Both the position numbers and the translations under genes were made by a program. A stretch of 64,000 nucleotides of DNA from the NCBI GenBank assembly GCA_016206805.1, contig JACQQX010000016.1:13256-77255 (forward strand), given 5' to 3'. This document shows, piece by piece, positions 3,157-35,466 of this stretch. The notes below the pieces were generated by a model, which was not told the DNA's origin, did no database searches, and was given only the letters and a program-made list of their open reading frames with translations. Source of the stretch: Candidatus Omnitrophota bacterium (GTDB lineage Bacteria; Omnitrophota; Gorgyraeia; 2-02-FULL-51-18). Every line of letters begins with the position of its first letter. Positions within the stretch are counted from its first letter, which is position 1.

Positions 3157-3159
3157 GCC

Positions 3160-17843: not shown

Positions 17844-18871
17844 AGGAATGCGATCAAATCCGCCACGCGACGGCTATAGCCCCATTCGTTGTCATACCAT
17901 AGAACTAGCTTTACATTATTTTTTGAATTGGCACGGGTCCAGCGCCCATCCACCACCAGCGATTGGTCTATTCCCAGAAAATCCACCGAAACCAGACTTT
18001 CTTCCTGGTAACCGATAATGCGACGATTCGTGCGCGCATGCCGCTTAAAAAGCTCGTTGATGCGTTTAGCGGTGACCGGCTTGGCCAGCGTCAGCGTCAG
18101 GTCAGAAGCCGAAACAGCGCCTGTCGGCACGCGGAAGGAAATGACATTTAATTTCTCATTTAAATTGGGGAGCACGCGTCCCAAAGCCTGTCCAACGGTG
18201 GTCTCTTTGGGAATTAAGCTATAGCTGCTGGCCCGTCCAAGCGCGAAGTCTTGCCAAAAATGCCCTGGGCTCGAAACAGAACGAACAGAGCCATCCAACA
18301 GATTTTGATAAGAAAGCCAGGGATGAAGCGTTGTGATATACCCGTGGTCAATGCCATAGGCCTCATCCAGGATTTTTAGGACAGGTGCCGCCGCATTCAC
18401 ATCACAAATGCTGGCGCTGACCACGTGGTGCTTGGCCGAGTTATACTGTTTTTCGTTCACACCAAAGATAAGCGTAAAATCCACGCCGTTTTTTGGAGAA
18501 TGCGTGATGATCACTTTACGCGCCGCCTGGTCTTTCAGAAGTTTGCGGCCGGAAAGCACATTTTGATAAACGCCGCTGGCATCCACAACAACATCGACGC
18601 CATATTTTTTCCAAGGCACTCTCGCGATATCCTGCTCAGAATGAAATGAAACCTTTTGACCATCCACCGTCATGGCCATATTGCCATTGGCCGCGGCTAC
18701 TTTTCCTTTAAAGCGGCCATGGATGGAGTCGTATTTTAAAAGATAGGCGTGGTTTTCCACATTGGGGTCCAGGTCATTGACCGCGACGATGCGGAAACTT
18801 TTTTCTTTTTGATTGATCCTGAAAAGGACCCGGCCGATGCGGCCAAATCCATTGAGTCCTACGCGTATCAT
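17840..18871 (-). CDS. Glyceraldehyde-3-phosphate dehydrogenase-family paralog
   Basis: N-terminal Rossmann IRVGLNGFGRIGRVLFR...IVAVND and the catalytic Cys in VVSASICDVNAAAPVLKIL (equivalent to the S-C-T-T-N-C region). Start at MIRVGL forms an ATGA overlap with the upstream gene. Confidence 0.7.
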   Translation of the reverse strand: MIRVGLNGFGRIGRVLFRINQKEKSFRIVAVNDLDPNVENHAYLLKYDSIHGRFKGKVAAANGNMAMTVDGQKVSFHSEQDIARVPWKKYGVDVVVDASGVYQNVLSGRKLLKDQAARKVIITHSPKNGVDFTLIFGVNEKQYNSAKHHVVSASICDVNAAAPVLKILDEAYGIDHGYITTLHPWLSYQNLLDGSVRSVSSPGHFWQDFALGRASSYSLIPKETTVGQALGRVLPNLNEKLNVISFRVPTGAVSASDLTLTLAKPVTAKRINELFKRHARTNRRIIGYQEESLVSVDFLGIDQSLVVDGRWTRANSKNNVKLVLWYDNEWGYSRRVADLIAFL

Positions 18872-19848
18872 AATCTCTCCTTGGCGTATTGATCGCAAAG
18901 TCTATCCAGCATTTTGCGGTATTGAGGCCTGACTTTTTCTTTTTTGAGAATAGCTTCCATACGCTTGGCTTGTTCTTCCAGAAAAGTACTGGGAAAAACG
19001 CGTGGCACATTGGCTTCGCTCATGATTTGACGGGTGCGCGCCGTTGGCAGGGTTTTCAGGAGTTTTTGGATACGGTTTAAAAATAGCGCCGGGCCTTGGG
19101 CAAACCGCTCGAACGGAACCCGTAGGAATTTCTTTTTATCGGCATTGGAAAGCCGTCGGTAACGAGCCTGAAAACTTTTGTCAAAATGGTCCATCACGCG
19201 GATGGCCTGTTCCATGCGTCCCAAGGACGCGTATTCTTTAGCCCAACCCGCCGCAAACCACGGCACCACCTTGCCGCCCGACTGGCAGCATAGCTGAAAT
19301 TCACGCGGATCATTTCCAATGCGTTTATCCCATTGACCTTCATACCAGCTTTCGACAAGCCACAACGGATGGCGCTCCATGAGAATATAAAGCTTAAGAC
19401 GGTCCTTAAAAGCCCCGAACAAAATATCCGAAGCCCCAAAAATATAATGCGTCATGAGAAATAGAATTGATTTTTTCTTTTGGATCTGTCGGACAGTGGC
19501 ATCTCCGGCCGGAGAAGCGGCTTTGAGCCTGTAAACTTCTTCTAAACCGTTTTTAGCTGCGCCACTGTCATCGTCTTTTCTAAAATTGGTGTTGCGGCCG
19601 ATCGACTGATGATAAAGGTCAATGTCGGAAAAAAGCTGAAGCATCATCGCGCAGGCTTTTTTATCGATTTTTCCAAGCAGATGAAGCGTTGAAAGCGACT
19701 CAAAAAGATAATCCAGACACCAGAGCTCCGCCCGCTCCATCGAGGAAAGAACCGGCGCCAGAAGCGTTTTGCCGGAACGGGAAAATCCATCGATGATGAC
19801 GATATTCTTGGCCAGCCGCTGGGGCCGTATCATCTCAAGAGACGACAT
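18868..19848 (-). CDS. Putative sulfotransferase-family protein (P-loop PAPS-binding-like)
   Basis: IVIIDGFSRSGKTLLAP resembles the 5'-PSB loop (G-x-PRSGTTLL) of Sulfotransfer_3-type bacterial sulfotransferases. 326 aa. No other family motif recognised, so the call is tentative. Confidence 0.4.
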   Translation of the reverse strand: MSSLEMIRPQRLAKNIVIIDGFSRSGKTLLAPVLSSMERAELWCLDYLFESLSTLHLLGKIDKKACAMMLQLFSDIDLYHQSIGRNTNFRKDDDSGAAKNGLEEVYRLKAASPAGDATVRQIQKKKSILFLMTHYIFGASDILFGAFKDRLKLYILMERHPLWLVESWYEGQWDKRIGNDPREFQLCCQSGGKVVPWFAAGWAKEYASLGRMEQAIRVMDHFDKSFQARYRRLSNADKKKFLRVPFERFAQGPALFLNRIQKLLKTLPTARTRQIMSEANVPRVFPSTFLEEQAKRMEAILKKEKVRPQYRKMLDRLCDQYAKERL

Positions 19849-21037
19849 GTTTCAGTACCCATTGGTTTTCGGTTTTCTCCCAAACATTGGAGATCGCGCG
19901 GTAACGGTCCATCACTTCCCAGAAAAAAGGCTCTTCGATATCCATGTAATCCAAAAACCATTGAAAGTATTTTTGTGGGAACTCGCCGTCATAACGGCGC
20001 GTGAGACGCACACCCTCTTCTCGCGTCAGATGATGCCGGCGGATATCCTGCTGGGCGTCGCGTGAGGCGCGACACATGCCAAATTTCATATAACTCAAAT
20101 ACCAGTGAAAACCATCAGCCTTGTCGTCCAGGCTGACATATTTATTGTAAGTGCCTTCCGAGCGGCCATCGTCATTGCACTCGAACCCGCAATATTGGAC
20201 CGCGTAATAAAAATTCTCCTGCGGCGTCCACTTTTGATAATAAGAATACCAGTGGCCTTCCACTCCCAGCTTCCGGATTTCTTCGACGGGAGGCGCTTTG
20301 TACCATTCGAGTGCCTTGCCCACTTCACTTTCTTTGAGAATCCCCCTCTTCAATCCCACGGCCGCGATATCATCCACCGTGGCGCCCTTAAACTGCTCCA
20401 CAATCCAGTCTTCCGGACCCTGTTTGGGCAGATTTTTAAATTTTTCCTGTCCGCCGTATTCCAACTCCCCATTTTCACCGTAAAAAATGAGGCTCAAACC
20501 AAACCGCCGGGCCATGTGATAAGCCCATGATTTTTGGCCGTAAGTGAATGGCTCCCAAGCGTCACCCTTGAGCTCAAACGCCAGCTTGGTCAGCTTGCGG
20601 TGAATGGAGCCATCCGGCTGACCCAAGAGATTGCTGAATCCTGAGTTGATAAAGTTCTGGAGATTTTTATAGCCGATGTCGGTGTATTCAAACGGCGTCC
20701 ATGTCACGCATAAAGGGTGCATGCCCCAGCGGACCTTGAGCTGATGCGCTACAAAAACGCTGTCCTTGCCGCCGGAGCCCGGCACGATGCAGTCAAAACT
20801 GCCGTCTTTAGAACGATGTTTCTCCAGAAGTTGCTCAAGCTCCGATTCCCGTTTTTTCCAATTCACCGCATGGTCTTTTTCGTAAGCCCATAAACAGGCC
20901 GAGCAAATCCCGTCTTCCGTGAAGCGCGTACGCGGCCGCTGATTAGAAACTACACAGTTGCGGCAAAAACGCACCTCTTTGGGAAGCGAGTCCAATTGCT
21001 TATCGAGGATGAGTGTGGGTTTCTGCGCTGGGTTCAT
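19835..21037 (-). CDS. N-acetyl sugar amidotransferase (WbuX/PseA/PtmG family, PP-loop ATP pyrophosphatase)
   Basis: N-terminal Zn-ribbon CRNCVVSNQRP...CSAC, PP-loop SGGKDS (CIVPGSGGKDSVF), and the conserved C-terminal region of LPS-biosynthesis amidotransferases. Confidence 0.8.
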   Translation of the reverse strand: MNPAQKPTLILDKQLDSLPKEVRFCRNCVVSNQRPRTRFTEDGICSACLWAYEKDHAVNWKKRESELEQLLEKHRSKDGSFDCIVPGSGGKDSVFVAHQLKVRWGMHPLCVTWTPFEYTDIGYKNLQNFINSGFSNLLGQPDGSIHRKLTKLAFELKGDAWEPFTYGQKSWAYHMARRFGLSLIFYGENGELEYGGQEKFKNLPKQGPEDWIVEQFKGATVDDIAAVGLKRGILKESEVGKALEWYKAPPVEEIRKLGVEGHWYSYYQKWTPQENFYYAVQYCGFECNDDGRSEGTYNKYVSLDDKADGFHWYLSYMKFGMCRASRDAQQDIRRHHLTREEGVRLTRRYDGEFPQKYFQWFLDYMDIEEPFFWEVMDRYRAISNVWEKTENQWVLKHVVS

Positions 21038-21690
21038 TTTTTAGAAATAAAATTTTTAAGGATGCGTAAACCCATTTCCCCGCTGCGTTCCGGATGAAAT
21101 TGGCAACCCTGAATATTATCTTGTAACAACACCGAGCAAAAACGGTCCTGCCCATATTCGGTTTGAGCCAACCAGGCCTGAGCGCTCTCCGGATAAACGC
21201 AATAGGAGTGAACAAAATACATGCAAGGTGCTTCATCCAGCCCATTCAAAAGCGTATCGCGCCAATTCCCGCCCTTGGAAGCGAGGGTCAGCCGATTCCA
21301 GCCGATTTGCGGGATTTTATAAGACTGCCCATTGTTGGGCGCCTGGAAACGACGCACTTTTCCGGCAATCAAATTTAAACCATCGTGAGAACCGCCCTCT
21401 TCGGAATGCGTCATCAAAAGCTGCATGCCCAGGCAAATCCCAAGAACGGGACAGCCCTCAGCCGCACGCTTGCGGATCGCGCTCACCAAGCCGCGCTCAT
21501 TCAAATACCGCATGCCCGCCTCAAAAGCACCCACGCCGGGCAGAATCAGTTTTTTAGCGGATAAAATATCTTCCGGTTTTCCGGAGATCACCGAAGACGC
21601 TCCTAAAAGATCAAGGGCCCGCTGGACATTAAAAAGATTGCCCACGCCGTAATCGATGATCACCGCGTCCGGGCTTTTAGCGTTTGGCAT
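21034..21690 (-). CDS. Imidazole glycerol phosphate synthase HisH-like glutamine amidotransferase (WbuY-type)
   Basis: AVIIDYGVGNLFNVQRAL...ILPGVGAF and a class I GATase Cys-His-Glu context (GICLGMQLL, H..E). The ORF may start at 21723. Confidence 0.8.
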   Translation of the reverse strand: MPNAKSPDAVIIDYGVGNLFNVQRALDLLGASSVISGKPEDILSAKKLILPGVGAFEAGMRYLNERGLVSAIRKRAAEGCPVLGICLGMQLLMTHSEEGGSHDGLNLIAGKVRRFQAPNNGQSYKIPQIGWNRLTLASKGGNWRDTLLNGLDEAPCMYFVHSYCVYPESAQAWLAQTEYGQDRFCSVLLQDNIQGCQFHPERSGEMGLRILKNFISKK

Positions 21691-22582
21691 AAGCCAGTCC
21701 CCGCACCGGAACGCCGCATTCATCCAGATAATTTTTAAGCTCAGGCAAACCCACGTGATTCACCATAATATTTTTGTAACCGCCGTAACCGTCTTTCAAA
21801 AAATCAATATTGCCGGAGTCGATATCTTCCCCCATCCGCAGCCGAGACTCATCAAAAGACATCCATCGCCGGTTGTCGCCAGGTGCAGTCGCATAATAAT
21901 AATGAAAAACCGACGCCGCGCTGACCGCGTCAGCCGCGCCCTGTGCAATGACTGAAAGAAAATCTTCCTTCTTTCCGGCTCCGCCTCCGGCAATCACCGG
22001 CACCGGCACCGCCTTCGCAACTTTAGACGTAAAGTCGACATCAAACCCATTGCCCATGCCATCGCGACGGATAGAGGTCAAAAGAATTTCTCCGGCGCCC
22101 AGGTCTACCGCGCGCCGCGCCCAGTCAAAAGCATCAATACCGGTCGGTTGACGGCCATAGTCGGTCCACACTTCATAACCGCCATGCGTTGTTTGATAAA
22201 ACTCAATGCTGGCAACGATACATTGCGAACCAAAAATCTGAGCGGCTTCTTTTAAAAGATTGGGATTTTCGATGGCGGCGGTATTGATCGCGACTTTGTC
22301 GGCGCCCGCGCGAAGGATTTCCCGGATATCTTCAACACTGCGGATGCCGCCGGCGACTGTCATCGGGATAAAAATCTTGGCGGCGGTTTTACGGATGTAT
22401 TCCAAAAGCGAATTGCGCCGGTAAAGACTGGCCACCGTATCATAAAAAATAAGTTCGTCCGCCCCTTCGCGGTAATAAATCTCGGCCAGCGCGTCCGGAG
22501 TCCCCAAAACACGATTGCCGTCAAACTGTATTCCTTTGACGACATTAGGCCCTTTAATGTCCAGGCGCGGGATGATTCTTAC
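21677..22582 (-). CDS. HisF-like cyclase subunit (WbuZ-type) with C-terminal extension
   Basis: MVRIIPRLDIKGPNVVKGIQFDG...PDALAEIYYREGADELIFYD...VAGGIRS are HisF (beta/alpha)8 barrel motifs. The ORF could extend to 22615. Confidence 0.8.
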   Translation of the reverse strand, partial: VRIIPRLDIKGPNVVKGIQFDGNRVLGTPDALAEIYYREGADELIFYDTVASLYRRNSLLEYIRKTAAKIFIPMTVAGGIRSVEDIREILRAGADKVAINTAAIENPNLLKEAAQIFGSQCIVASIEFYQTTHGGYEVWTDYGRQPTGIDAFDWARRAVDLGAGEILLTSIRRDGMGNGFDVDFTSKVAKAVPVPVIAGGGAGKKEDFLSVIAQGAADAVSAASVFHYYYATAPGDNRRWMSFDESRLRMGEDIDSGNIDFLKDGYGGYKNIMVNHVGLPELKNYLDECGVPVRGLAYAKR

Positions 22583-23379
22583 CATACGCTCAAACCCCCA
22601 TCGACCACCAGGCACTGGCCCGTCACGTAACTGGAAGCGTCCGATGCCAAGAAAATAAGCGCGCCGGTCATTTCATTGGGCTTAGCCATTCTCCCCATCG
22701 GCACGCGTCGCGAATAATTTTGAATAAACGTTTTATCCTGCCCGTTTTCCACGCCACCCGGGACAATGGCATTGACACGAATATTTTTGGACGCCCAATC
22801 GGCGGCAAGATGCTTGGTCAGGCCAATCACACCGGCTTTGGACGCCGTATACACCGCCGGCGCGCTTAACTCCCGGGGTTTAGGATAAATACGCTGGTCG
22901 GGCGCCATGAGACCATAAATCGAAGCGGTTTGGATGATGCTGCCGCCTTGATGCCTTGCCATCCGGCCGCCCACGGTTTGCGCGACCAAAAACATGCCGT
23001 CCAAATTAACAGCCATGACTTCCCGCCAGGACGAAAGATCCATGCCCGCCGCGTTTTTGTAAAAATCGGAAGAATGCTTAAGTTTTGTAGCGGCGTTATT
23101 ATGCAAAATAGAAATGGGCCCTAGCGTCTTCTCCGCCAGGGAAACCATTCGCCGGACGCTTTGGGGATCGGAAACGTCACAACCGATGCCGACGGCTTTT
23201 ACCTCGTATTTTCCGGCAATTTCCAGCGCGAATTTTTTACAAACAGCCTCATCAACGTCCACGATGGCCACATTCGCCCCGTAATCCGCCAACGCCCGGC
23301 AAAAATAACGCCCTAAAAACCCCGAGCCGCCGGTCACCACGGCGTTCTTTTTTGAAAGGTCAAACAGACTGGGTTTCAT
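22579..23379 (-). CDS. SDR-family oxidoreductase (PtmA-like)
   Basis: NAVVTGGSGFLGRYF (TGxxxGxG), NNAA, and Y-x3-K in ASKAGVIGLTK. Start at MKPSLFDL. Confidence 0.75.
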   Translation of the reverse strand: MKPSLFDLSKKNAVVTGGSGFLGRYFCRALADYGANVAIVDVDEAVCKKFALEIAGKYEVKAVGIGCDVSDPQSVRRMVSLAEKTLGPISILHNNAATKLKHSSDFYKNAAGMDLSSWREVMAVNLDGMFLVAQTVGGRMARHQGGSIIQTASIYGLMAPDQRIYPKPRELSAPAVYTASKAGVIGLTKHLAADWASKNIRVNAIVPGGVENGQDKTFIQNYSRRVPMGRMAKPNEMTGALIFLASDASSYVTGQCLVVDGGLSVW

Positions 23380-23647
23380 GTTTATCCACCTTAAAATAAA
23401 CGCGCAAGTACATGGCGATACACGCCGCCAGGAAAATGAGAGCAAGGACGTACTTTACCTGGAGCGGCCGCTGGTCGATCAAAAGAGCATACCAGAGCGC
23501 AATAATGTTTCCGATAAAAGAAATCAGGAGCAGCCGGAAACTCAGCCCGGCCACCGTTTTTGTCTTAATCGTTTTCATGATTTGAGGCCAGTAGCAGGCG
23601 GTGAAAAGAACGGTGGCCGTCCAACCCAAAATGTCGGCGAGGGTCAT
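23360..23647 (-). CDS. Small PQ-loop (SemiSWEET/MtN3-like) membrane protein
   Basis: 95 aa with three hydrophobic helices and a PQ motif in helix 1 (FTACYWPQIMKTIKTKTVAGLS). Confidence 0.45.
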   Translation of the reverse strand: MTLADILGWTATVLFTACYWPQIMKTIKTKTVAGLSFRLLLISFIGNIIALWYALLIDQRPLQVKYVLALIFLAACIAMYLRVYFKVDKHETQSV

Positions 23648-24351
23648 GATTTTTTTTCTCCTTTTCTCGTCATCAAAAAGCCAACGATTTCAAAATCCAG
23701 CTCACTATCGATGTCCAAAGACCGCTCGGGCGGCATTTCATAAAACCGGGTGGCCTTGTTGAAAAGCGGGTCTTCGCGGAAAAGATTTTTCCGGTTCCAC
23801 ACGTAAATCGAGGCGTTCATGTCATAACACCGGGGGGAATCCTGCCTTCGCAAAACCGGCGCCGCCGGCGGTTTTGAAAGTTTCGGCGCGCCATTCTTGC
23901 CCAGCTCGACAAGGTTAAAATAAGGGGAACGCCGCGACGCGGCGCCAGTGATCACGTTGGCCGCGTCGCTTTTTTCGAGAAGGCTTACAGCTTTCAAGAT
24001 ATCGTCGACATGCCGCAAAGGAGAGGTGGGGTCCAGGTCGCATACTGTTTCAAAAATAAAACCCGTACTTTTCTCGACCGCTGACACGCAATGACGGATG
24101 GCCGGCAGCTTGGGAGCGTGGTCCGTGGCAAGTTTGGCCGGCCGCCGGATCAGAAAATCAGCCCCCCATTTCCTGCCGGCTTCGAGGATGGCAGCCGAGT
24201 CACTGGTGACCGCGATAGCGGTAAAAAGTCCCGAGGCTTTTGCCTGGGAAATCGTATGGGCGATCAGGGGTTTACCGGCCAGTGGACGGATATTTTTATT
24301 TTTTACGCCTTTGGATCCGCCGCGCGCGCAAATCACGCAAAGCCTTTTCAT
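23644..24351 (-). CDS. Acylneuraminate cytidylyltransferase (CMP-nonulosonic acid synthetase, NeuA/LegF/PseF-like)
   Basis: MKRLCVICARGGSKGVKNKNIRPLAGKPLIAHTI...IAVTSDSAAILEAGRKWGADFLIRRP matches CTP_transf_3. Confidence 0.75.
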   Translation of the reverse strand: MKRLCVICARGGSKGVKNKNIRPLAGKPLIAHTISQAKASGLFTAIAVTSDSAAILEAGRKWGADFLIRRPAKLATDHAPKLPAIRHCVSAVEKSTGFIFETVCDLDPTSPLRHVDDILKAVSLLEKSDAANVITGAASRRSPYFNLVELGKNGAPKLSKPPAAPVLRRQDSPRCYDMNASIYVWNRKNLFREDPLFNKATRFYEMPPERSLDIDSELDFEIVGFLMTRKGEKKS

Positions 24352-25256
24352 CGCTTCACCCAGCTTTTCTTTTTAGCCGCTTTTTCCGCGGCAGCAATGA
24401 GGCTCATGACTTCCATCCCCTCACTGAGCCTGGCCACATCGTGGAATTTTCCTTTGAGCGCCGATTCATGCTGCCACCGGTAAGTGGCGTCGCGATCGAT
24501 TTCAAAACTTTCAATCTCTCCATCCACCCGAAGCGTTCCGCCGATCAAATCCACCTTATAACTGTGCCGGTCCGTGTTGATAAAAACTTCACGGCGCGGA
24601 TTTCTATCGATATAATTGATCTGAAGTGAAACTGCCCGGCAGCGGCGCGTGGTCATCAAAAGACAAAACACATCGTCGCTAGTGATTTTGAGCTTGCTGA
24701 AATGTCCGCCAATAGCCGCCACCGAAGTCCAGCCACCCAATAACCAGTTCAGATAATCCAGCTCATGACTCAAATCCCTCAATACCCCGCCGCCGGCTTT
24801 TTTATCCGCCGAATAACCGCGGCGATAATCCGCTTGCCGCCAGGACGGCAGGAAACTGCCGGCATATACCTGCGTGGAAATAATAGTTTCCTTCTTCAGT
24901 AAGACGCTCAGTTTCTGCAGCGCCGGATGAAAACGCAAATTATAAGCCACGCCGATATATTTAAAATGATTCACGGGGAATGAGGCTGCCTGCGCGAAAA
25001 CCGGCTTCTCAATCAAAAGCGCGCCTTTAAAACCGCTCTGTTTTAATTCCAGCACCGTCTTTCGATGGTCACTTGTCTTATTGGCAATCACCACATAATC
25101 CGGTTTTTCTTTTGAAAGTGCCGCCGCCAGCGTTTTGTAGCTGGGTTTAAAATCAATATTCCGCTTGGACACCACCGCTATCGGACATCCCAATGCCTTT
25201 AAAATCCTCGCGTGCCGCGAACCAATGGAACCATAACCGATGACAAGGGTCTTCAT
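24348..25256 (-). CDS. Gfo/Idh/MocA-family NAD(P)-dependent oxidoreductase (PtmF-like)
   Basis: MKTLVIGYGSIGSRHARIL Rossmann N-terminus and the EKP motif (LLIEKPV) characteristic of Gfo/Idh/MocA. Confidence 0.75.
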   Translation of the reverse strand: MKTLVIGYGSIGSRHARILKALGCPIAVVSKRNIDFKPSYKTLAAALSKEKPDYVVIANKTSDHRKTVLELKQSGFKGALLIEKPVFAQAASFPVNHFKYIGVAYNLRFHPALQKLSVLLKKETIISTQVYAGSFLPSWRQADYRRGYSADKKAGGGVLRDLSHELDYLNWLLGGWTSVAAIGGHFSKLKITSDDVFCLLMTTRRCRAVSLQINYIDRNPRREVFINTDRHSYKVDLIGGTLRVDGEIESFEIDRDATYRWQHESALKGKFHDVARLSEGMEVMSLIAAAEKAAKKKSWVKR

Positions 25257-26728
25257 TTGACCGTGGCCTTTAACGCGCGATTCATCACGCGATGGTGTTC
25301 GATTTTTTCATGGATATCCTTGCAAACCCGCTCAATAGCCCCCGGCTTAATGCCATTGGAAGATGGCAAACTGATTCCGCGCGCGGAAAGCGCTTCGGTC
25401 ACTGGAAATGGGTCTGAGGAACGATAGGGCGGCTGGTGATGCAGCGGATAAAAGAAGGTACGCGTCTCAATCCCTTCCCTTTCCAGCCCGCGAACCAGCT
25501 CATCACGCGTGATGCCCGTCTTTTTTTCATCAATGAGAATCGAATACAACCAGTAAATGTTTTTGGCCCAGGGCATCTCGGGCGGCAATGTAATCCCAGG
25601 CAGGCCTTTGAAACCAGCCGTGTAATGCTGAGCAATTTTCCGGCGGCTGGCCAGGAAACGGTCGATCTGCTCTAGCTGCGCCAGACCAATCGCGGCCTGG
25701 AGATTGGTCATGCGGTAATTGAATCCGGCCACCTCATGCCAATAACGCCGGCCACGCCGCATGCCATGATCGCGCAAAACCATCATCTTGTCGTATAACG
25801 AAGCGTCCGCGCAGGTCACCATCCCGCCTTCTCCTGTCGTAATCACTTTGTTTGAAAAAAAACTAAAACAGGCGGCGTCCCCAAATGTCCCAACCTTCTT
25901 GCCTTTGTATTCAGCGCCCAGCGCCTCAGCGCAATCTTCAACAACAAAAAGTTTTCTTTTCTCGGCCAAGGCCATGATTGGGTCCATATCGCAAGGATGT
26001 CCATACAAATGAACCGGCATAATGACTTTTGTCCGTGGGGTCAGAACCGATTCAAGCTTAGCCGGATCCATATTCCAATAATTTTTAGTCACATCCACGA
26101 GAATGGGTTTGGCGCCGCTATGAATCACCGCATTGGCGCTGGCCGCGAACGTTAGATTGGGAACAATCACTTCATCGCCCGGCCCCACACCCAGCGCGGT
26201 TAATGCCAGGTGAAGCGCGGCCGTGCCATTGCAGGTGGCCGTCGCGTAAGACATGTCATGGTATTTGGCAAAAGCGACTTCAAAAGACTTCACATAAGGC
26301 CCTTGGGATGAAATCCAATTGGTCGCGATGCAATCCATCACGTATTTCATTTCATTGCCCGCCAACACCGGCTCCATAATGGGCATGCGCCACATTTCAG
26401 CCCATGAAAGCACGTCAACCAGGCGCCCTTTCGCGTCCAAAATAGGCAAATGGCGAATTTCATCGGTCAACAACCGCACATTTTCTTCATGGGAAGCATT
26501 CGCGCGGCCGCTGGTGAATTTCTGTCTCAAAAAACGGGTAGCCGGCATATCCAGCGTAGCGTCTTTCAAAAAGGCGCGGCGCACGTCCCCATCCGTCATC
26601 ACGCCAACCATGCGCTTATCAGTCCCTACAAAAAAAACAGCTCCCAACGCTCCCTGATTGAGCCTATCCAAAACATCCTTTAAGGTCGCCTTTTCAGAAA
26701 CAACGTTATTGAGGAAATCTTTAGGCAT
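25253..26728 (-). CDS. Fusion: tandem CBS domains + DegT/DnrJ/EryC1/StrS-family PLP-dependent sugar aminotransferase (LegC/PseC-like)
   Basis: The N-terminal ~120 aa form a CBS pair (FFVGTDKRMVGVMTDGDVRRAF...). The remainder has NGTAALHLAL, the VIVPNLTFAASANAV PLP region, and FSFFSNKVITTGEGG with the Lys of the DegT family. Confidence 0.8.
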   Translation of the reverse strand: MPKDFLNNVVSEKATLKDVLDRLNQGALGAVFFVGTDKRMVGVMTDGDVRRAFLKDATLDMPATRFLRQKFTSGRANASHEENVRLLTDEIRHLPILDAKGRLVDVLSWAEMWRMPIMEPVLAGNEMKYVMDCIATNWISSQGPYVKSFEVAFAKYHDMSYATATCNGTAALHLALTALGVGPGDEVIVPNLTFAASANAVIHSGAKPILVDVTKNYWNMDPAKLESVLTPRTKVIMPVHLYGHPCDMDPIMALAEKRKLFVVEDCAEALGAEYKGKKVGTFGDAACFSFFSNKVITTGEGGMVTCADASLYDKMMVLRDHGMRRGRRYWHEVAGFNYRMTNLQAAIGLAQLEQIDRFLASRRKIAQHYTAGFKGLPGITLPPEMPWAKNIYWLYSILIDEKKTGITRDELVRGLEREGIETRTFFYPLHHQPPYRSSDPFPVTEALSARGISLPSSNGIKPGAIERVCKDIHEKIEHHRVMNRALKATVK

Positions 26729-27596
26729 TCAAAGGCTCCTTGAGTCGGGAGTTAATGAGTTTGATTTGAGCGGCAATGGTTTCCGGCGAAAGACGGTAGG
26801 ACTCTAGCACCCAAGGAACCCGCGGTGGAATGTGATTGGCCAACGGTTTCCAAAACCAGGAGTCCTCACTCAACGGTTCATTGGTGTCGGCGGAACCGTC
26901 ATTGTCACTCAAATGAACCGCGCGAATCGCCTCGGAAAGCTCGTGTACCGCCCGTACGGCATTAAATCCTAGCGCGATGGCCGATACTTTCAAATGCGCG
27001 ACATCCAAAAGAAGTCCCAGGTTTTTTCTTCCCACCGCTTTCAAGACAGCCAAAACTTCGTCGGCGGTAACCGCCAGCAACAATTCGTTCTTTCCATCGA
27101 TTCGGTTAAACGGCGCGAACACATTATTCTCAAAAAGGAACCCCGTGCCACGATTGGCCGCATAATCGGCCAACATTCCTAAACTTTCGTGAAAAATCGC
27201 AAGGGCGGTGTCCTTAGAGATACGTCCCAATCCCGTTTGTTTCCGGCCCAAATGCTCGGGAGCCGCATGAAAACAAAATCCCGAATGCACGCTATAAAAC
27301 GGTGACTCCAAAAGCACGCATAAATCAATGGCAGCTTTGCAATGCTGACGGCTTTTTTCAAGTGTGTCTGCATCATCAGAAGCAAGATTTAAAACAAAAG
27401 GTTTGGCGGGCGTTGGAAAATAATTATGGACCAAAAACTGAAGATGGGACTTGGCTTTTAAAACCACCGGCAGCATGCTCTCGTCATAAAGCGCGGCGGA
27501 GCTGAGCTCAACGCGCTTCCATCCGCGGCTTTGGCAAAGCGCGATGATCTCAAGAACCGATTTTTTTCCGAAAGCGCCTGTAGAAAGATAAATCAA
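26721..27596 (-). CDS. Sugar phosphate isomerase/epimerase (xylose-isomerase-like TIM barrel)
   Basis: AP_endonuc_2/xylose isomerase-like barrel pattern (MIYLSTGAF...VELSS...HNYFP...SVHSGF...LFENN...HLSDN). Confidence 0.6.
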   Translation of the reverse strand: MIYLSTGAFGKKSVLEIIALCQSRGWKRVELSSAALYDESMLPVVLKAKSHLQFLVHNYFPTPAKPFVLNLASDDADTLEKSRQHCKAAIDLCVLLESPFYSVHSGFCFHAAPEHLGRKQTGLGRISKDTALAIFHESLGMLADYAANRGTGFLFENNVFAPFNRIDGKNELLLAVTADEVLAVLKAVGRKNLGLLLDVAHLKVSAIALGFNAVRAVHELSEAIRAVHLSDNDGSADTNEPLSEDSWFWKPLANHIPPRVPWVLESYRLSPETIAAQIKLINSRLKEPLNA

Positions 27597-28207
27597 TGGT
27601 AAACTCCGAGGATTTTTTTCTTGGCCGGAACGTCCCGCAAAACCACCGACCCCGCGCCCACCGTCACTTCTGGGCCGATAGTCAGCCGGTCCGCGATCGA
27701 AGCATTCACGCCGATAAAAGAAAGCGCGCCAATAGACGTGCGCCCGGCAACAACCGCCTGGGGCGCCAAATGCGAAAAATCCCCAAGGCTCGACTCATGG
27801 TCCAGCGAAGCGCCGGTATTGACGATACAGCCTTTTCCCACGATGGCTTCCGCGCCAAGGGTAGCTCCCAAACAAACGACACTACCCTCCCCTATTTCGG
27901 CGCTTTTTTCAACCAGCGCGCTGGGATGCACAAGGCTGGGCGTCCTAAAACCATGCCGCTTCAAAAACTCAAACGCTTTTTGACGCTTGGCATTATCTCC
28001 CAGGGCCAGGTAAACGTTTCCCGCTTTATTTTTAAATTTCAGAATAGATTCAAACCGGCCAAGCACGGGCGATCCGGCGATTTTCTCCGCTTTATGCGGA
28101 TCGTAAGAATCGTCAAAGAACCCTAATACCGTAATTTTTTGAGCCTTCAAAATCGAGGCGAGAACGCGCGCATGCCCTCCGGCCCCAAACACCACGGCTT
28201 TTTTCAT
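27593..28207 (-). CDS. NeuD/PglD/LegH-family sugar N-acetyltransferase (N-terminal Rossmann-like + left-handed beta-helix)
   Basis: MKKAVVFGAGGHARVLASIL N-terminus followed by hexapeptide repeats (IGEGSVV, GKGCIVNTGASL, SIGALSFIGVNASI). Confidence 0.75.
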   Translation of the reverse strand: MKKAVVFGAGGHARVLASILKAQKITVLGFFDDSYDPHKAEKIAGSPVLGRFESILKFKNKAGNVYLALGDNAKRQKAFEFLKRHGFRTPSLVHPSALVEKSAEIGEGSVVCLGATLGAEAIVGKGCIVNTGASLDHESSLGDFSHLAPQAVVAGRTSIGALSFIGVNASIADRLTIGPEVTVGAGSVVLRDVPAKKKILGVYH

Positions 28208-29223
28208 TGGACCACATCCGGCGTGATGAGCTCATCCGCCTGAATATTTTTACGGGTCTTACGGCCAAGCACCAGATGCAGCTGATTCCCCAAGAGTCCT
28301 TTAGCCGGTCTCTTAAAAAGAATGTGTTCGGCGGTCAATACCGTTCCGGCTGAAATGTCCTGGGCCGCGACAGCGCTTCGCCGCATTCCCGTCATATTCG
28401 CGCGCTCAGCGACGGTCGGTGTTTTTTCGGCGGAGCCTAGACACTTTTCCGCGTCACGGACTAAGCGCGCCCATTTTGAAAAATCATCCGGATTTAAAGA
28501 AGTCGATTGGTCGGGGCCGGGCATATTTTTGTCCAAAGTAAAATGTTTTTCGACCACACAAGCGCCGAGAGCCACAGCGGCAATCACCGCGGTGTTGCCC
28601 GGAGTGTGATCCGAATAACCGACAGGAATTTGAAATGTTTCCGACAGGGTTTTTAAAGCGCGCAGGTGAGTGTCTTCCAGTGAGGACGGGTAATTGGTGG
28701 TGCATTGCAAAAGAATGAGGGGCGCCTTACTTTCGGCGCGGATCACTTGCACCGCCTGACCCACCTCTTCCAAAGTCGCCATTCCGGTTGAAAGATAAAT
28801 CGTTTTGCCTTTACGGGCAACATGACGAAGAAAGGGATGCTCCACCACATGGATTGAGGCCAGTTTAAAAGCCCCGGCACCCAGACTCTCCAGAAAATCG
28901 GCGTCCAGCGCGTCGTAAGGCGTGGAAAGGAATTGGATGCTTTCTTTCCGGCATAAATTGATCAGCGCGGGATAGCTGTCGCGCGAAAGCTCGAGCTTCT
29001 TGAGCATGTCCAGTTGAGATTCGGCCCGCGGCGTGGTTTTGAGCTGATACTCGGCTTTAGGCGCATTGGCCAAAGCGACTCTTTGGGCTGAAAAAGTCTG
29101 GAATTTAACACAGTCAGCCCCCGCCCTCTTGGCTTCAATCACCAAGCGCTTGGCCAGCTCCGGATCACCATTATGATTGACGCCGGCCTCGGCGATAATC
29201 AAAACAGGATCAGTCTTCTTCAT
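28204..29223 (-). CDS. neuB: N-acetylneuraminate/legionaminate/pseudaminate synthase (NeuB family, PEP-condensing) with C-terminal SAF domain
   Basis: VLIIAEAGVNHNGDPELAKRLVIEAKRAGADCVKFQTF and GYSDHTPGNTAVIAAVALGACVVEKHFTLD are NeuB motifs; the C-terminal antifreeze-like domain is present. Confidence 0.8.
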   Translation of the reverse strand: MKKTDPVLIIAEAGVNHNGDPELAKRLVIEAKRAGADCVKFQTFSAQRVALANAPKAEYQLKTTPRAESQLDMLKKLELSRDSYPALINLCRKESIQFLSTPYDALDADFLESLGAGAFKLASIHVVEHPFLRHVARKGKTIYLSTGMATLEEVGQAVQVIRAESKAPLILLQCTTNYPSSLEDTHLRALKTLSETFQIPVGYSDHTPGNTAVIAAVALGACVVEKHFTLDKNMPGPDQSTSLNPDDFSKWARLVRDAEKCLGSAEKTPTVAERANMTGMRRSAVAAQDISAGTVLTAEHILFKRPAKGLLGNQLHLVLGRKTRKNIQADELITPDVVQ

Positions 29224-32081: not shown

Positions 32082-32087
32082 AGGCTC

Positions 32088-35463: not shown

Positions 35464-35466
35464 GGA

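What the first reader, a model, noticed from the sequence alone, without database searches (positions are those of the whole stretch)
19835..29223. Nonulosonic-acid (legionaminic/pseudaminic-like) module with acetamidino-forming WbuX/HisH/HisF triad and Campylobacter ptm-like gene content
Consecutive genes encode the recognised building blocks of a nonulosonic acid pathway. These are a NeuB-family synthase, a NeuD/PglD-type N-acetyltransferase, a xylose-isomerase-like TIM-barrel protein, a DegT-family aminotransferase that is unusually fused to an N-terminal CBS pair, a Gfo/Idh/MocA oxidoreductase, a CMP-NulO synthetase, an SDR, and an N-acetyl-sugar amidotransferase with HisH-like and HisF-like partners (PP-loop SGGKDS). 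This content parallels the C. jejuni ptm/leg genes that make CMP-Leg5Am7Ac, where PtmG is the amidotransferase, PtmA the SDR, PtmF the Gfo/Idh/MocA enzyme, and PtmE carries CBS domains. The sugar therefore probably carries an acetimidoyl (acetamidino) group. No NeuC-type hydrolysing 2-epimerase or PseB/LegB 4,6-dehydratase is recognisable in the window. The 2-epimerase at 6414..7532 looks WecB-type. A small PQ-loop membrane protein is embedded at 23360..23647.
Basis: partly seen in the sequence, partly recalled or inferred. Interest (0 to 1): 0.55.

Follow-up and report, generated by a model that had tools for sequence, protein, structure and literature searches.

The report
Hybrid legionaminic-type nonulosonic acid operon
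This stretch of a Candidatus Omnitrophica genome is an operon for a CMP-activated, sialic-acid-like nine-carbon sugar carrying an acetamidino group; its second half matches ordinary legionaminic-acid clusters, but its first half is a widespread, unstudied four-gene cassette that lacks two enzymes every known route needs.

Summary
All eleven ORFs at 19835-29223 (minus strand) have the stated domains. The SGGKDS PP-loop is present, the distant 2-epimerase is WecB-type, and the window holds no LegB/PseB or NeuC.

The locus is a mosaic.

Back half (Gfo/Idh/MocA, cytidylyltransferase, SDR, HisF/HisH/WbuX): it has the same gene content as PGAP-annotated legionaminic-acid clusters on Rhizobium and Sphingomonad plasmids. 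It is collinear with them through the SDR and 41-63% identical, so the ptm-like parallel and the NulO-linked acetamidino triad hold.

Front half (NeuB, N-acyltransferase, xylose-isomerase-like TIM barrel, CBS~aminotransferase): this is a conserved cassette found in 24 loci (23 with DNA) from about ten bacterial lineages. None has LegB, LegG/NeuC or a PtmE nucleotidyltransferase domain. Five have a GDP-mannose 4,6-dehydratase next to the cassette or a few kb upstream.

The aminotransferase fails the LegC and PseC cut-offs. Its closest solved relative is GDP-perosamine synthase. Its CBS pair is homologous to that of PtmE-type enzymes.

Best guess (inferred): the 4-keto sugar comes from GDP-mannose. 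The product would be a legionaminic-type sugar, possibly with 5-OH.

The CBS fusion is common, not unusual. Rating: new variant of a known kind.

The parts
29463..29492 (-). Sigma-70-like promoter match (TTGACT-18-TATGAT, with TG) in the only sizeable intergenic gap; a possible operon start
   Evidence: 10 of 12 matches, the best site on this strand. The number of sites in the region is not above the shuffled expectation, so this is suggestive only.
29210..29443 (-). Small HTH_17 (excisionase/MerR-like) DNA-binding protein, 77 aa, overlapping the NeuB start
   Evidence: PF12728 41.5 bits. The gene is called in the identical Logan contig. It sits in the same position in the sister Omnitrophica MAG L089.
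28204..29223 (-). NeuB-family NulO synthase (NeuB + SAF), LegI-like
   Evidence: TIGR03569 400.6 against 399.65; PseI 279.4, below 340.25. It is 41% identical to the NeuB of PGAP-annotated Leg clusters. In an NJ tree it groups with cassette NeuBs and canonical LegI, well away from the second 'NeuB2' type.
27593..28207 (-). NeuD/PglD/PerB-type left-handed beta-helix N-acetyltransferase
   Evidence: TIGR03570 211.6, above 160.8. The best solved relative is perosamine N-acetyltransferase PerB (4EA7, 125 bits), against 81 for PglD. In related loci this slot holds a GNAT or a formyltransferase instead.
26721..27596 (-). Xylose-isomerase-like (AP_endonuc_2) metal TIM barrel of unknown reaction; always immediately upstream of the CBS~aminotransferase wherever it is present (absent from minimal locus L008, unresolved in short contig L019)
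   Evidence: PF01261 70.3 bits. The family has 1570 homologues. AF2 pLDDT is 96. Best folds are MJ1311, TTHB071, Art22, UlaE, ketose 3-epimerases, YcjR and Endo IV. Invariant residues are H57, H104, E156, D198, H201, H228, D237 and E265.
25253..26728 (-). CBS pair (about residues 1-112) fused to a Per/LegC-type sugar 4-aminotransferase
   Evidence: DegT 444.7 bits; LegC family 368.5, below 420; PseC 314, below 423.5. The best solved relative is C. crescentus GDP-perosamine synthase at 392 bits. The CBS pair is homologous to that of a PtmE-like enzyme, E 2e-14. It is 100% identical to an NCBI Candidatus Omnitrophica protein.
24348..25256 (-). Gfo/Idh/MocA oxidoreductase, PtmF-like
   Evidence: Pfam. 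It is 44-50% identical to the Gfo/Idh/MocA gene that sits between the nucleotidyltransferase and the cytidylyltransferase in plasmid Leg clusters. It gives a weak match to 6Z3B/6Z3C (deposited as 'Gfo/Idh/MocA family oxidoreductase') and to YjhC, about 30 bits.
23644..24351 (-). CMP-NulO synthetase, LegF-like
   Evidence: CTP_transf_3 73 bits. Solved NeuA structures score about 97 bits. It is 55-63% identical to the cytidylyltransferase of canonical Leg clusters. It is only 25-37% identical to those of the other cassette loci, and those in turn are only 27-37% identical to canonical LegF.
23360..23647 (-). SemiSWEET / PQ-loop membrane protein, 95 aa; a lineage-specific insertion
   Evidence: PF04193 51 bits; NF037968 41.8, below its 80-bit cut-off. 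It is absent from the otherwise collinear sister MAG L089.
22579..23379 (-). Classical SDR, PtmA-like (the ORF runs to 23445; the likely start is M23 at 23379)
   Evidence: adh_short_C2 175 bits. It is 57% identical to the SDR that follows the cytidylyltransferase in the Rhizobium Leg cluster. The start is inferred.
21677..22615 (-). HisF-like cyclase subunit (WbuZ/AglZ type)
   Evidence: WbuZ 263.7, below 299.7; HisF 278.7, below 294.55. It is 52% identical to the PGAP-annotated wbuZ of the Rhizobium Leg cluster.
21034..21723 (-). HisH-like glutaminase subunit
   Evidence: TIGR01855 213.5, above 105.4. It is 39-41% identical to the hisH of plasmid Leg clusters.
19835..21037 (-). WbuX-family N-acetyl-sugar amidotransferase with a PP-loop
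   Evidence: TIGR03573 323, above 203.2. SGGKDS lies at residues 88-93. It is 42% identical to the amidotransferase of the Rhizobium Leg cluster. A 53%-identical WbuX directly follows the CBS~aminotransferase in L029.
18868..19848 (-). Soluble 326-aa protein, weakly sulfotransferase-like; kept next to WbuX in the sister MAG; membership of the module is uncertain
   Evidence: Sulfotransfer_3 E 0.0026, below cut-off. A paralogue in L089 matches Sulfotransfer_1 at 24.6 bits, above 22. It has an RSGKT P-loop-like motif. L089 carries two paralogues directly after WbuX. Single-sequence AF2 was uninformative.

Best explanation
One operon makes a CMP-activated 9-deoxy nonulosonic acid of the legionaminic (LegI/LegF-compatible) type that ends up carrying an acetamidino group. 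It is a mosaic of two parts.

Back half (well supported by homology and synteny; no enzymology). This is the ordinary PtmF-LegF-PtmA-WbuX/WbuZ/HisH block of GDP-type legionaminic-acid clusters. The cytidylyltransferase activates the sugar. The glutamine-dependent PP-loop amidotransferase triad converts an N-acetyl group to an acetamidino group. What the two oxidoreductases do is unknown.

Front half (inferred). This is a conserved four-gene cassette that replaces LegB, LegC, LegG, LegH, LegI and PtmE. My proposal for how it works:
1. The 4-keto-6-deoxy sugar nucleotide is not made by a dedicated LegB. It is drawn from a shared pool, most likely GDP-4-keto-6-deoxy-D-mannose made by Gmd.
2. The CBS-regulated aminotransferase is the committed step and forms a GDP-perosamine-type 4-amino sugar. 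The CBS pair may sense the CMP-sugar end product.
3. The acyltransferase N-acetylates that sugar. In other genomes the equivalent enzyme formylates or otherwise acylates it.
4. The metal TIM barrel either epimerises the keto intermediate or releases the free sugar. A manno-configured sugar needs no 2-epimerase.
5. NeuB condenses the free sugar with PEP.

If step 1 is right, the product is 7-acetamid(in)o-3,7,9-trideoxy-non-2-ulosonic acid with 5-OH, rather than the usual 5,7-diamino sugar.
For: Domains.

Mosaic structure:
- Versus the Rhizobium plasmid Leg cluster the back half is 41-63% identical (44/63/57/52/41/42%). It is collinear through Gfo-cytidylyltransferase-SDR, and the amidotransferase triad follows in a different internal order.
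- The front half is only 34-41% identical to LegC, LegH and LegI of the same cluster.
- The window's cytidylyltransferase is LegF-like (63%), while other cassette loci use a different one (27-37%).

Cassette conservation:
- NeuB, acyltransferase, TIM and CBS~aminotransferase occur together, nearly always with a cytidylyltransferase. There are 24 loci (23 with DNA) from Beta-, Gamma- and Alphaproteobacteria, Rhodothermales, Verrucomicrobia, Rokubacteria, Chloroflexi, Bacteroidota, Lachnospiraceae and Omnitrophica.
- One locus (L008) keeps only the aminotransferase, a cytidylyltransferase and a NeuB2-type synthase.

Missing enzymes:
- No locus has a LegG/NeuC homologue.
- The best LegB match in any locus is 23-31%, and these are cross-hits to Gmd, RmlB or CDP-glucose dehydratases. 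Canonical clusters are 57-63% identical to each other.
- PtmE matches cover the CBS part only.

Gmd:
- A true Gmd lies directly upstream of the cassette in L006, L015 and L088 (589-607 bits against a cut-off of 415), and in L015 without Fcl.
- L093 has one at 75% identity, and the P0007 locus has the same pair by Pfam pattern.

Aminotransferase:
- Its closest solved relative is GDP-perosamine synthase, 392 bits, against 167 for PglE and 145 for PseC.
- It is 46-50% identical to Gmd-adjacent homologues from Caulobacter, Salmonella and Mesorhizobium.
- It fails the LegC cut-off.

Other points:
- The acyltransferase slot is filled by PerB-like, GNAT or sugar N-formyltransferase-like proteins.
- This CBS subtype is shared with PtmE-type nucleotidyltransferases and other sugar-precursor enzymes.
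- The TIM barrel keeps the metal and catalytic residues of the superfamily.
Against: - The window itself has no Gmd, and 19 of the 24 cassette loci show none nearby.
- In four of the five Gmd-bearing loci Gmd comes with Fcl, so it could simply serve fucose synthesis.
- L046, a locus with a LegB-like dehydratase (57-61% identical to LegB), has an aminotransferase 51% identical to the window's. Sequence identity therefore cannot decide whether C2 of the substrate carries OH or NHAc.
- The acetyltransferase is as close to LegH of canonical clusters (34-37%) as to Gmd-linked PerB-like proteins (32-35%).
- The LegF-like cytidylyltransferase and the PtmF/PtmA-like genes fit ordinary legionaminic acid equally well.
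- I know of no natural mono-amino 9-deoxy nonulosonic acid, and one literature search found none.
- The TIM barrel's reaction is unassigned. No precedent was found for this fold acting on a nucleotide sugar.
- The whole genome could not be searched.
Confidence: 0.42

Rival explanations
1. This is ordinary legionaminic acid (5,7-diamino, e.g. Leg5Am7Ac). The dehydratase, the hydrolysing 2-epimerase and the enzymes that make the nucleotide-GlcNAc precursor are encoded elsewhere in the genome. The TIM barrel is an accessory or a stereochemical tailoring enzyme.
For: - The back half is orthologous to that of canonical Leg clusters, including a 63%-identical LegF-like synthetase and PtmF/PtmA-like genes.
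- NeuB falls in the LegI-like clade.
- The aminotransferase's best NCBIfam model is the LegC family.
- A LegB-linked aminotransferase (L046) is 51% identical.
- Only 64 kb of an 85-kb contig could be seen.
Against: - All 23 cassette loci with DNA, from about ten lineages, would have to keep LegB, LegG and PtmE unlinked, whereas canonical clusters keep them adjacent.
- The aminotransferase fails the LegC cut-off that true LegC passes (368.5 against 492.9; cut-off 420).
- A Gmd, not a LegB, is what recurs next to the cassette.
- The always-present TIM barrel would have no necessary role.
Confidence: 0.3
2. The WbuX/HisH/HisF triad does not act on the nonulosonic acid. It acts on a separate N-acetyl hexosamine of the same glycan, such as a FucNAm-, QuiNAm- or ManNAc3NAmA-type sugar, as in E. 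coli O145 or archaeal AglXYZ (my own knowledge of those systems).
For: - The WbuX family model is a generic 'N-acetyl sugar amidotransferase'.
- HisF falls just below both the WbuZ and the AglZ cut-offs.
- A WecB gene and many glycosyltransferases show that other HexNAc sugars occur in this glycan.
- Most cassette loci lack the triad.
Against: - In the Rhizobium plasmid Leg cluster the triad sits directly after the PtmA-like SDR. In the Sphingomonad cluster it lies about 7 kb downstream in the same locus. It is contiguous with the module in both Omnitrophica MAGs.
- WbuX directly follows the CBS~aminotransferase in L029, and follows the cytidylyltransferase in the canonical locus L062.
- No FnlA-type or other 6-deoxy-HexNAc pathway is present in the window.
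Confidence: 0.1
3. NeuB makes a Kdn- or Neu5Ac-type sugar from an ordinary hexose. The amino group is then introduced after condensation, on the free or CMP-linked ulosonic acid: oxidation by the Gfo/Idh/MocA or SDR enzymes, keto handling by the TIM barrel, then transamination and N-acetylation.
For: - No dehydratase or epimerase would be needed.
- The solved Gfo/Idh/MocA structures the window's enzyme weakly resembles (about 30 bits) are 6Z3B/6Z3C and YjhC, which from my own knowledge are 2,7-anhydro-Neu5Ac oxidoreductases.
- The solved 8-amino-3,8-dideoxy-manno-octulosonate (Kdo8N) transaminase is a DegT-family enzyme (169 bits), so this family can aminate a free ulosonic acid.
- TIM barrels of this superfamily act next to carbonyl groups.
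Against: - Most cassette loci have no oxidoreductase at all, so no keto group could be formed.
- The aminotransferase and the acyltransferases (PerB-like, or sugar N-formyltransferase-like) are of types that act on nucleotide-hexoses.
- No source of ManNAc is present, since the epimerase is WecB-type and 14 kb away.
Confidence: 0.08

Closest known systems
GDP-type CMP-legionaminic acid clusters. Examples: C. jejuni leg/ptm and T. forsythia (PMC5378307, PMC4481668); PGAP-annotated clusters on Rhizobium sp. WL3 plasmid NZ_CP042825 and Sphingomonadaceae plasmid CP099622.
   Same: - NeuB/LegI-like synthase (41% identical), NeuD/PglD-type N-acetyltransferase, and a Per/LegC-superfamily aminotransferase.
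- The order [CBS protein]-Gfo/Idh/MocA-cytidylyltransferase-SDR is the same, and a WbuX/WbuZ/HisH triad follows. These genes are 41-63% identical.
- The CBS pair is the same subtype as in PtmE-like enzymes.
   Different: - No LegB, no LegG/NeuC and no nucleotidyltransferase domain.
- The CBS pair is on the aminotransferase instead.
- The aminotransferase scores below the LegC cut-off.
- There is an extra metal TIM barrel that canonical clusters lack (no hit in L046, L062, L090 or L091).
- A SemiSWEET gene is inserted.
GDP-perosamine / N-acetylperosamine pathway: Gmd, Per and PerB of Caulobacter crescentus (PDB 3DR4/3BN1 and 4EA7), and Gmd-Per gene pairs in Salmonella and Mesorhizobium.
   Same: - The aminotransferase domain and the acetyltransferase each have the C. 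crescentus enzyme as their closest solved relative (392 and 125 bits).
- Homologues adjacent to Gmd are 46-50% identical.
- Gmd lies next to the cassette, or a few kb upstream, in five related loci.
- In L029 a sugar N-formyltransferase fills the acyltransferase slot.
   Different: - Here the enzymes are coupled to a NeuB synthase, a cytidylyltransferase and a TIM barrel, and the aminotransferase carries a CBS pair.
- Perosamine pathways hand the GDP-sugar straight to glycosyltransferases.
- The window has no Gmd.
WbuX/WbuY/WbuZ (E. coli O145), AglX/Y/Z (Methanococcus) and PseA/PtmG (Campylobacter) acetamidino-forming amidotransferases. The system names come from my own knowledge; the family models are NCBIfam.
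   Same: A PP-loop amidotransferase with HisH-like glutaminase and HisF-like partners. WbuX passes its family cut-off, and the SGGKDS motif is present.
   Different: - The acceptor sugar is untested.
- HisF scores just below both the WbuZ and the AglZ equivalog cut-offs.
MJ1311 / ketose-3-epimerase-like and endonuclease-IV-like TIM barrels (PDB 3WQO, 3AYT, 8Z1I, 3CQJ, 6WN6, 1QTW).
   Same: The fold matches (TM 0.6-0.78), and the Glu/Asp/His metal and catalytic residues are conserved in the same strand positions.
   Different: - Identity is only 12-21%.
- MJ1311 is deposited as 'Uncharacterized protein MJ1311' and 'D-tagatose 3-epimerase-like protein'.
- None of these proteins is known to me to act in nonulosonic-acid synthesis.

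Membership tests
CMP-legionaminic acid pathway (LegB, C, H, G, I, F + PtmE; defined in PMC5378307 citing Schoenhofen 2009) | LegB: NDP-GlcNAc 4,6-dehydratase | tested here: not met
   The only 4,6-dehydratase in the window scores 149.6 on TIGR04180 (cut-off 475) and is the CDP-glucose type. The best match to two LegB seeds is 28-30%. LegB is absent from all 23 cassette loci with DNA.
CMP-legionaminic acid pathway | LegC-family aminotransferase (equivalog TIGR04181) | tested here: not met
   It scores 368.5, below 420. The LegC of canonical locus L062 scores 492.9. It is 34-39% identical to three LegC proteins.
CMP-legionaminic acid pathway | LegG: hydrolysing NDP-sugar 2-epimerase (NeuC family) | tested here: not met
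   The only epimerase is WecB (NeuC model 70, below 235.9) and lies 14 kb away. Two LegG seeds give only 20-21% matches, and these fall on that WecB gene.
CMP-legionaminic acid pathway | LegI: NeuB-family synthase of the Leg type | tested here: inconclusive
   TIGR03569 400.6 against 399.65. The model does not separate NeuB from LegI, since a LegI from a canonical cluster scores 363.7. It is 41% identical to LegI of PGAP clusters and clusters with them in an NJ tree. True NeuB and PseI references were missing from that tree.
CMP-legionaminic acid pathway | LegF cytidylyltransferase with PtmF- and PtmA-like neighbours | tested here: met
   It is 55-63% (cytidylyltransferase), 44-50% (Gfo) and 57% (SDR) identical to, and in the same order as, PGAP-annotated Leg clusters. 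No enzymology was done.
CMP-legionaminic acid pathway | PtmE: CBS + GlcN-1-P guanylyltransferase | tested here: not met
   Only the CBS pair is present, and it is fused to the aminotransferase. The nucleotidyltransferase seeds match only the unrelated glucose-1-P cytidylyltransferase at 53520-54320.
Pseudaminic acid pathway (PseB, C, H, G, I, F) | PseB, PseC, PseI and PseF equivalogs | tested here: not met
   PseB 51.1 < 407.75. PseC 314 < 423.5, PseI 279.4 < 340.25 and PseF 126.5 < 205.7. PseG and PseH were not tested.
Neu5Ac pathway (NeuC, NeuB, NeuA) | NeuC hydrolysing UDP-GlcNAc 2-epimerase as the source of ManNAc | tested here: not met
   No NeuC is present. NeuB passes TIGR03569 by only 1 bit. 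An aminotransferase and an N-acetyltransferase are not part of that pathway.
WbuX/WbuY/WbuZ-type acetamidino system | PP-loop N-acetyl-sugar amidotransferase | tested here: met
   TIGR03573 323, above 203.2. SGGKDS lies at residues 88-93.
WbuX/WbuY/WbuZ-type acetamidino system | HisH-like glutaminase and HisF-like (WbuZ/AglZ) partner encoded next to it | tested here: inconclusive
   HisH 213.5, above 105.4, but this is the generic HisH model. HisF-like: WbuZ 263.7 < 299.7 and AglZ 204.4 < 310. It is 52% identical to a PGAP 'wbuZ'. The three genes are adjacent.
GDP-perosamine pathway (Gmd, Per, PerB) | Gmd supplying GDP-4-keto-6-deoxy-mannose | tested here: not met
   There is no Gmd in the 64-kb window; the best match is 26%, to the CDP-glucose dehydratase. 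Gmd is present next to the cassette or a few kb upstream in five related loci. The rest of the genome was not searchable.
GDP-perosamine pathway (Gmd, Per, PerB) | Per-type aminotransferase and PerB-type N-acetyltransferase | tested here: inconclusive
   These are the closest solved relatives (392 and 125 bits), and the domain nests among Gmd-linked homologues in an NJ tree. However, no perosamine-synthase model appeared among the NCBIfam matches, a LegB-linked homologue is equally close (51%, L046), and substrate use was not tested.

The most novel reading that the evidence does not exclude
The NeuB / N-acyltransferase / TIM barrel / CBS~aminotransferase cassette, found across about ten bacterial lineages, is a third, undescribed route to bacterial nine-carbon ulosonic acids. 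It starts from GDP-mannose via N-acyl-perosamine and needs neither a dedicated 4,6-dehydratase nor a NeuC-type hydrolysing epimerase. It would give a new class of mono-amino sugar, 7-acylamido-3,7,9-trideoxy-non-2-ulosonic acid with 5-OH. The TIM barrel would be a new kind of enzyme that releases or epimerises a nucleotide sugar. The CBS pair would act as an end-product sensor that has been shuffled between the committed enzymes of different ulosonic-acid pathways.
Probability: 0.3. Interest if true: 0.8.

Novelty: new variant of a known kind. Interest (0 to 1): 0.58.

Why it matters
Nonulosonic acids decorate flagella, S-layers, capsules and LPS, and they shape recognition by hosts and phages. 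All textbook routes to the 9-deoxy members need a dedicated 4,6-dehydratase and (Leg) a hydrolysing 2-epimerase or (Pse) a nucleotidase.

A cassette that lacks these in all 24 loci sampled, across many environmental phyla, means one of two things. Either current genome mining by LegB/LegG/PseB markers systematically misses producers, or there is an undescribed pathway and perhaps an undescribed sugar.

The question is directly testable with four or five recombinant proteins and LC-MS. It would also assign a function to a 1570-member family now labelled 'sugar phosphate isomerase/epimerase'. The mosaic found here also shows how the front and back ends of such pathways are recombined.

Tried and rejected
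- A sequence search of the PDB with the TIM barrel alone found nothing. Only a family profile reached MJ1311. The fold search could not separate an epimerase/isomerase from a phosphoesterase.
- Literature searches for the cassette (CBS, aminotransferase, xylose isomerase, nonulosonic; and perosamine + nonulosonic + NeuB) found nothing relevant. A search for the Art22 isomerase found no usable paper.
- I could not retrieve the original description of PtmA and PtmF function. Their roles are left open rather than quoted from memory.
- NCBIfam cannot separate LegI from NeuB, because a canonical LegI scores below both cut-offs. The requested NeuB phylogeny could only be done against synteny-defined references.
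- The acetyltransferase does not discriminate LegH from PerB (32-37% to both).
- Percent identity of the aminotransferase cannot settle the C2 substituent, because the LegB-linked L046 enzyme is 51% identical.
- Promoter and terminator scans were not above the shuffled background.
- Single-sequence AF2 of the 326-aa ORF failed (pLDDT 38). Its PDB search was empty.
- I considered that the CDP-glucose 4,6-dehydratase at 52543-53559 might feed the module. I rejected this because it sits in its own RfbH/TPP-enzyme cassette 24 kb away.
- I considered a recent PtmE-LegC deletion fusion as the origin of the CBS~aminotransferase. I rejected this because the full-length fusion is 55-66% identical in many loci that lack any ptm genes.

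Full report
**Source and setting**

The CBS~aminotransferase is 100% identical to an NCBI protein from a Candidatus Omnitrophica MAG, on an 85,234-bp contig. The called genes lie almost entirely on the minus strand and are tightly packed or overlapping. The whole 64 kb is a glycan-biosynthesis locus. It holds heptosyl- and other glycosyltransferases, several PMT_2/GT-C proteins, a flippase, MBOAT/SGNH acylation genes and a CDP-sugar cassette.

**Checking the observation**

Scores are given in the observation check. The SGGKDS PP-loop lies at residues 88-93 of the WbuX protein.

- The distant epimerase (6414-7532) is a non-hydrolysing WecB: 373.7 bits against 70 on the NeuC model.
- The only 4,6-dehydratase in the window (52543-53559) is the CDP-glucose type. 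It sits with RfbH (729.8 bits) and a glucose-1-P cytidylyltransferase, and scores far below the LegB and PseB cut-offs.
- So the statement that no LegB/PseB or NeuC is recognisable is correct.

Additions:
- A 77-aa HTH_17 gene (29210-29443) lies directly upstream of NeuB, with a promoter-like site at 29492-29463. They occupy the only real intergenic gap.
- The SDR probably starts at 23379.

**The CBS fusion is common and marks a conserved cassette**

The 491-aa CBS~DegT protein has many close relatives. All 120 best-scoring 90%-identity clusters listed are 55-100% identical. All but one are full-length (~465-513 aa), and that one is a truncated gene call. They come from Omnitrophica, Verrucomicrobia, Rhodothermales, Betaproteobacteria, Chloroflexi and others.

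I fetched neighbourhoods by exact-protein look-up and by a scan of one genome per species. I mapped them with tblastn.

- In 24 loci of the CBS type (23 with DNA), the same order recurs: NeuB, an N-acyltransferase, the TIM barrel, then the CBS~aminotransferase. A cytidylyltransferase usually follows.
- One minimal locus (L008) keeps only the aminotransferase, an acyltransferase, a cytidylyltransferase and a NeuB2-type synthase. L019 is too short to judge.
- The acyltransferase slot is filled by non-homologous enzymes: a PerB/PglD-type beta-helix protein, a small GNAT, or in L029 a sugar N-formyltransferase-like protein.
- The aminotransferase's CBS-less relatives (42-54% identical) are almost never next to a NeuB.

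**What the cassette lacks**

As seeds I used LegB, LegC, LegG, LegI, LegF and PtmE from canonical clusters. These were L062, validated by NCBIfam (LegB 501.6 > 475; LegC 492.9 > 420), and two PGAP-annotated plasmid clusters.

- No CBS-type locus has a LegG/NeuC homologue.
- None has a LegB. The best matches are 23-31% cross-hits to Gmd, RmlB or CDP-glucose dehydratases, whereas canonical clusters are 57-63% identical to each other.
- PtmE seeds match only the ~110-residue CBS pair.

**What the cassette resembles**

- The aminotransferase domain's closest solved relative by far is C. crescentus GDP-perosamine synthase: 392 bits, against 167 for PglE and 145 for PseC.
- The acetyltransferase's closest solved relative is perosamine N-acetyltransferase PerB: 125 bits, against 81 for PglD.
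- Among the CBS-less relatives, at least thirteen have a Gmd in the locus. In several, including Salmonella, Mesorhizobium, Caulobacter and Tabrizicola, it is directly adjacent. That is the classic Gmd-Per pair.
- In an NJ tree the CBS forms nest among these Gmd-linked proteins.
- A true Gmd (589-607 bits, cut-off 415) lies directly upstream of the cassette in L006, L015 and L088, and in L015 without Fcl.
- L093 has a Gmd 75% identical about 4.5 kb upstream. The P0007 locus shows the same pair by Pfam pattern.

This is the positive evidence that the keto-sugar comes from GDP-mannose. It is not conclusive, for four reasons.
- The window has no Gmd.
- Fcl accompanies Gmd in four of the five loci.
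- A LegB-linked aminotransferase (L046) is also 51% identical.
- The acetyltransferase is as close to LegH as to PerB-like proteins.

**The back half is canonical**

A protein search of plasmids with the Gfo/Idh/MocA gene found annotated legionaminic-acid clusters. In Rhizobium sp. WL3 the order is LegB, LegC, NeuC, NeuB, acetyltransferase, nucleotidyltransferase, Gfo/Idh/MocA, cytidylyltransferase, SDR, N-acetyl-sugar amidotransferase, WbuZ, HisH.

| Window gene | Identity to Rhizobium cluster |
|---|---|
| Gfo/Idh/MocA | 44% |
| Cytidylyltransferase | 63% |
| SDR | 57% |
| HisF | 52% |
| HisH | 41% |
| WbuX | 42% |
| NeuB | 41% |
| Acetyltransferase | 37% |
| Aminotransferase | 34% |

- The order Gfo-cytidylyltransferase-SDR is the same in both. 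The triad follows in both, though its internal order differs.
- Other cassette loci use a cytidylyltransferase only 27-37% identical to LegF.
- A second Omnitrophica MAG (L089) has the same hybrid order at 61-84% identity. It lacks the SemiSWEET gene and has a split HisH call.
- The window is therefore a mosaic: cassette front end, Leg-type back end.
The amidotransferase triad groups with nonulosonic-acid clusters, not with a separate hexosamine pathway. WbuX is also directly adjacent to the cassette in L029.

**The CBS pair**

It is homologous to the CBS pair of a PtmE-like nucleotidyltransferase: 29% identity, E 2e-14, with a shared TDGDxRRA motif.

A library-wide search with the CBS part alone found 2080 relatives. 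Many are about 350 aa long. Of the ten I scanned, six were CBS + NTP_transferase. The other four were one CBS + PglD-type acetyltransferase, one CBS + GHMP kinase and two CBS + GT2.

I infer a portable regulatory module placed on entry enzymes of sugar-precursor pathways. Placing it on the aminotransferase fits the idea that this is the committed step drawing on a shared keto-sugar pool.

**The TIM barrel**

- The family has 1570 members, with source names reading 'sugar phosphate isomerase/epimerase' among the 120 best listed, apart from one 'hypothetical protein'.
- The AF2 model is confident, with pLDDT 96.
- The nearest structures are MJ1311 (no assigned function in its PDB entries), TTHB071, Art22, UlaE, ketose 3-epimerases, YcjR and endonuclease IV, at TM 0.6-0.78 and 12-21% identity.
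- The invariant residues H57, H104, E156, D198-x-x-H201, H228, D237 and E265 align with the Glu/Asp/His motifs of MJ1311. Over the segment aligned, they also align with D-tagatose 3-epimerase.
- From my own knowledge of the superfamily, these are the metal and acid-base residues. The chemistry is then either proton abstraction next to a carbonyl or phosphoester hydrolysis.
- Either would fit a step around the keto-sugar or the release of the free sugar. I cannot decide between them.

**NeuB**

In an NJ tree the cassette NeuBs and canonical LegI proteins form one superclade. It is clearly separate from a second 'NeuB2' type, 26-31% identical, that many cassette loci carry with a DHDPS-family gene. 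The window lacks NeuB2 and DHDPS.

**Verdict**

- Observation: confirmed.
- Interpretation: partly supported.
- The operon very probably makes a CMP-activated legionaminic-type sugar with an acetamidino group. That general claim I put at about 0.8.
- The route into it is not the Campylobacter one. The specific GDP-mannose/perosamine reading is my best mechanistic guess, at about 0.4.
- I rate it a new variant of a known kind. The interest lies mainly in the widespread, uncharacterised cassette rather than in this particular window.

Noticed in passing
window 44629-54320 (minus strand): A complete-looking cassette for a CDP-linked 3,6-dideoxy, probably branched-chain hexose. It holds a glucose-1-P cytidylyltransferase (321.6 > 300.25), a CDP-glucose 4,6-dehydratase-like gene, RfbH (729.8 bits), two SDR epimerase/reductases, an acetolactate-synthase-like TPP enzyme, a DmpG/DmpF-like aldolase and acetaldehyde dehydrogenase, and a GT2. 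From memory it resembles yersiniose-type pathways.
   Followed up: partly
window 18868-19848 and 9931-11580; L089 15377-17360: A weakly sulfotransferase-like 326-aa protein sits right after WbuX, with two paralogues in the sister MAG (one passes Sulfotransfer_1). Further downstream is an odd fusion of a pyruvate-kinase barrel to an APS kinase domain. Together these hint that the glycan, or the nonulosonic acid itself, is sulfated.
   Followed up: partly
window 14815-18898: Directly downstream of the module lie a GAPDH-like protein (below cut-off), an FAA-hydrolase-family protein, a second cytidylyltransferase in which only the N-terminal third matches CTP_transf_3, a phosphoglycerate-dehydrogenase-like 2-hydroxyacid dehydrogenase and a HAD phosphatase. 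GAPDH-like is also kept in the sister MAG. This may be a C3-acid (glycerate-type) substituent pathway. It remains unexplained.
   Followed up: no
window 29567-36584: Upstream block: an AlgX-like SGNH protein, an unknown 382-aa protein with a signal-like N-terminus, an MBOAT, an FkbH_N-domain protein (588 aa), an SDR and a 137-aa hot-dog-like ORF. MBOAT and neighbouring genes are also upstream of the HTH-NeuB start in L089. It looks like an extracytoplasmic glycan O-acylation system, perhaps using a glyceryl unit. No ACP gene was seen.
   Followed up: partly
L001, L002, L006, L010, L011, L014, L017, L092, L093, L094 and the P0007 locus: Many cassette loci carry a DHDPS-family gene and a second, divergent NeuB, both directly after the cytidylyltransferase. 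The DHDPS gene's best model is 5-dehydro-4-deoxyglucarate dehydratase, well below cut-off. The second NeuB is 26-31% identical and below both the NeuB and PseI cut-offs. Often a PhyH-family dioxygenase lies just upstream of the first NeuB. The window lacks all three. Their role is unknown.
   Followed up: partly
L013 (Magnetospirillum sp. MAG, JACRFY010000017.1): A Magnetospirillum MAG carries the cassette: cytidylyltransferase, NeuB, a GNAT-like match, TIM and CBS~aminotransferase. [quoted passage not shown] A link is pure speculation, but it is a lead.
   Followed up: no
window 23360-23647 versus L089: The SemiSWEET gene is wedged between the cytidylyltransferase and the SDR, overlapping both. 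It is absent from the collinear sister MAG, so it is a recent insertion. A sugar transporter inside a nucleotide-sugar operon is unusual.
   Followed up: partly
proteins P0241, P0247, P0264, P0272: The same CBS subtype is fused N-terminally to GT2 glycosyltransferases, a PglD-type acetyltransferase and a GHMP kinase, as well as to PtmE-type nucleotidyltransferases and the aminotransferase. This suggests a portable regulatory module for glycan-precursor enzymes.
   Followed up: partly
window 2425-4668: A B12-binding radical SAM protein (its best model is HpnJ, 255 bits, far below cut-off) and a class-I methyltransferase are embedded among the glycosyltransferases. They may carry out C-methylation or another radical tailoring of the glycan.
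   Followed up: no
L089 13535-14176: In the sister Omnitrophica MAG the HisH-like gene is called as two fragments (121 and 69 aa). It may be a frameshift or an assembly error.
   Followed up: no
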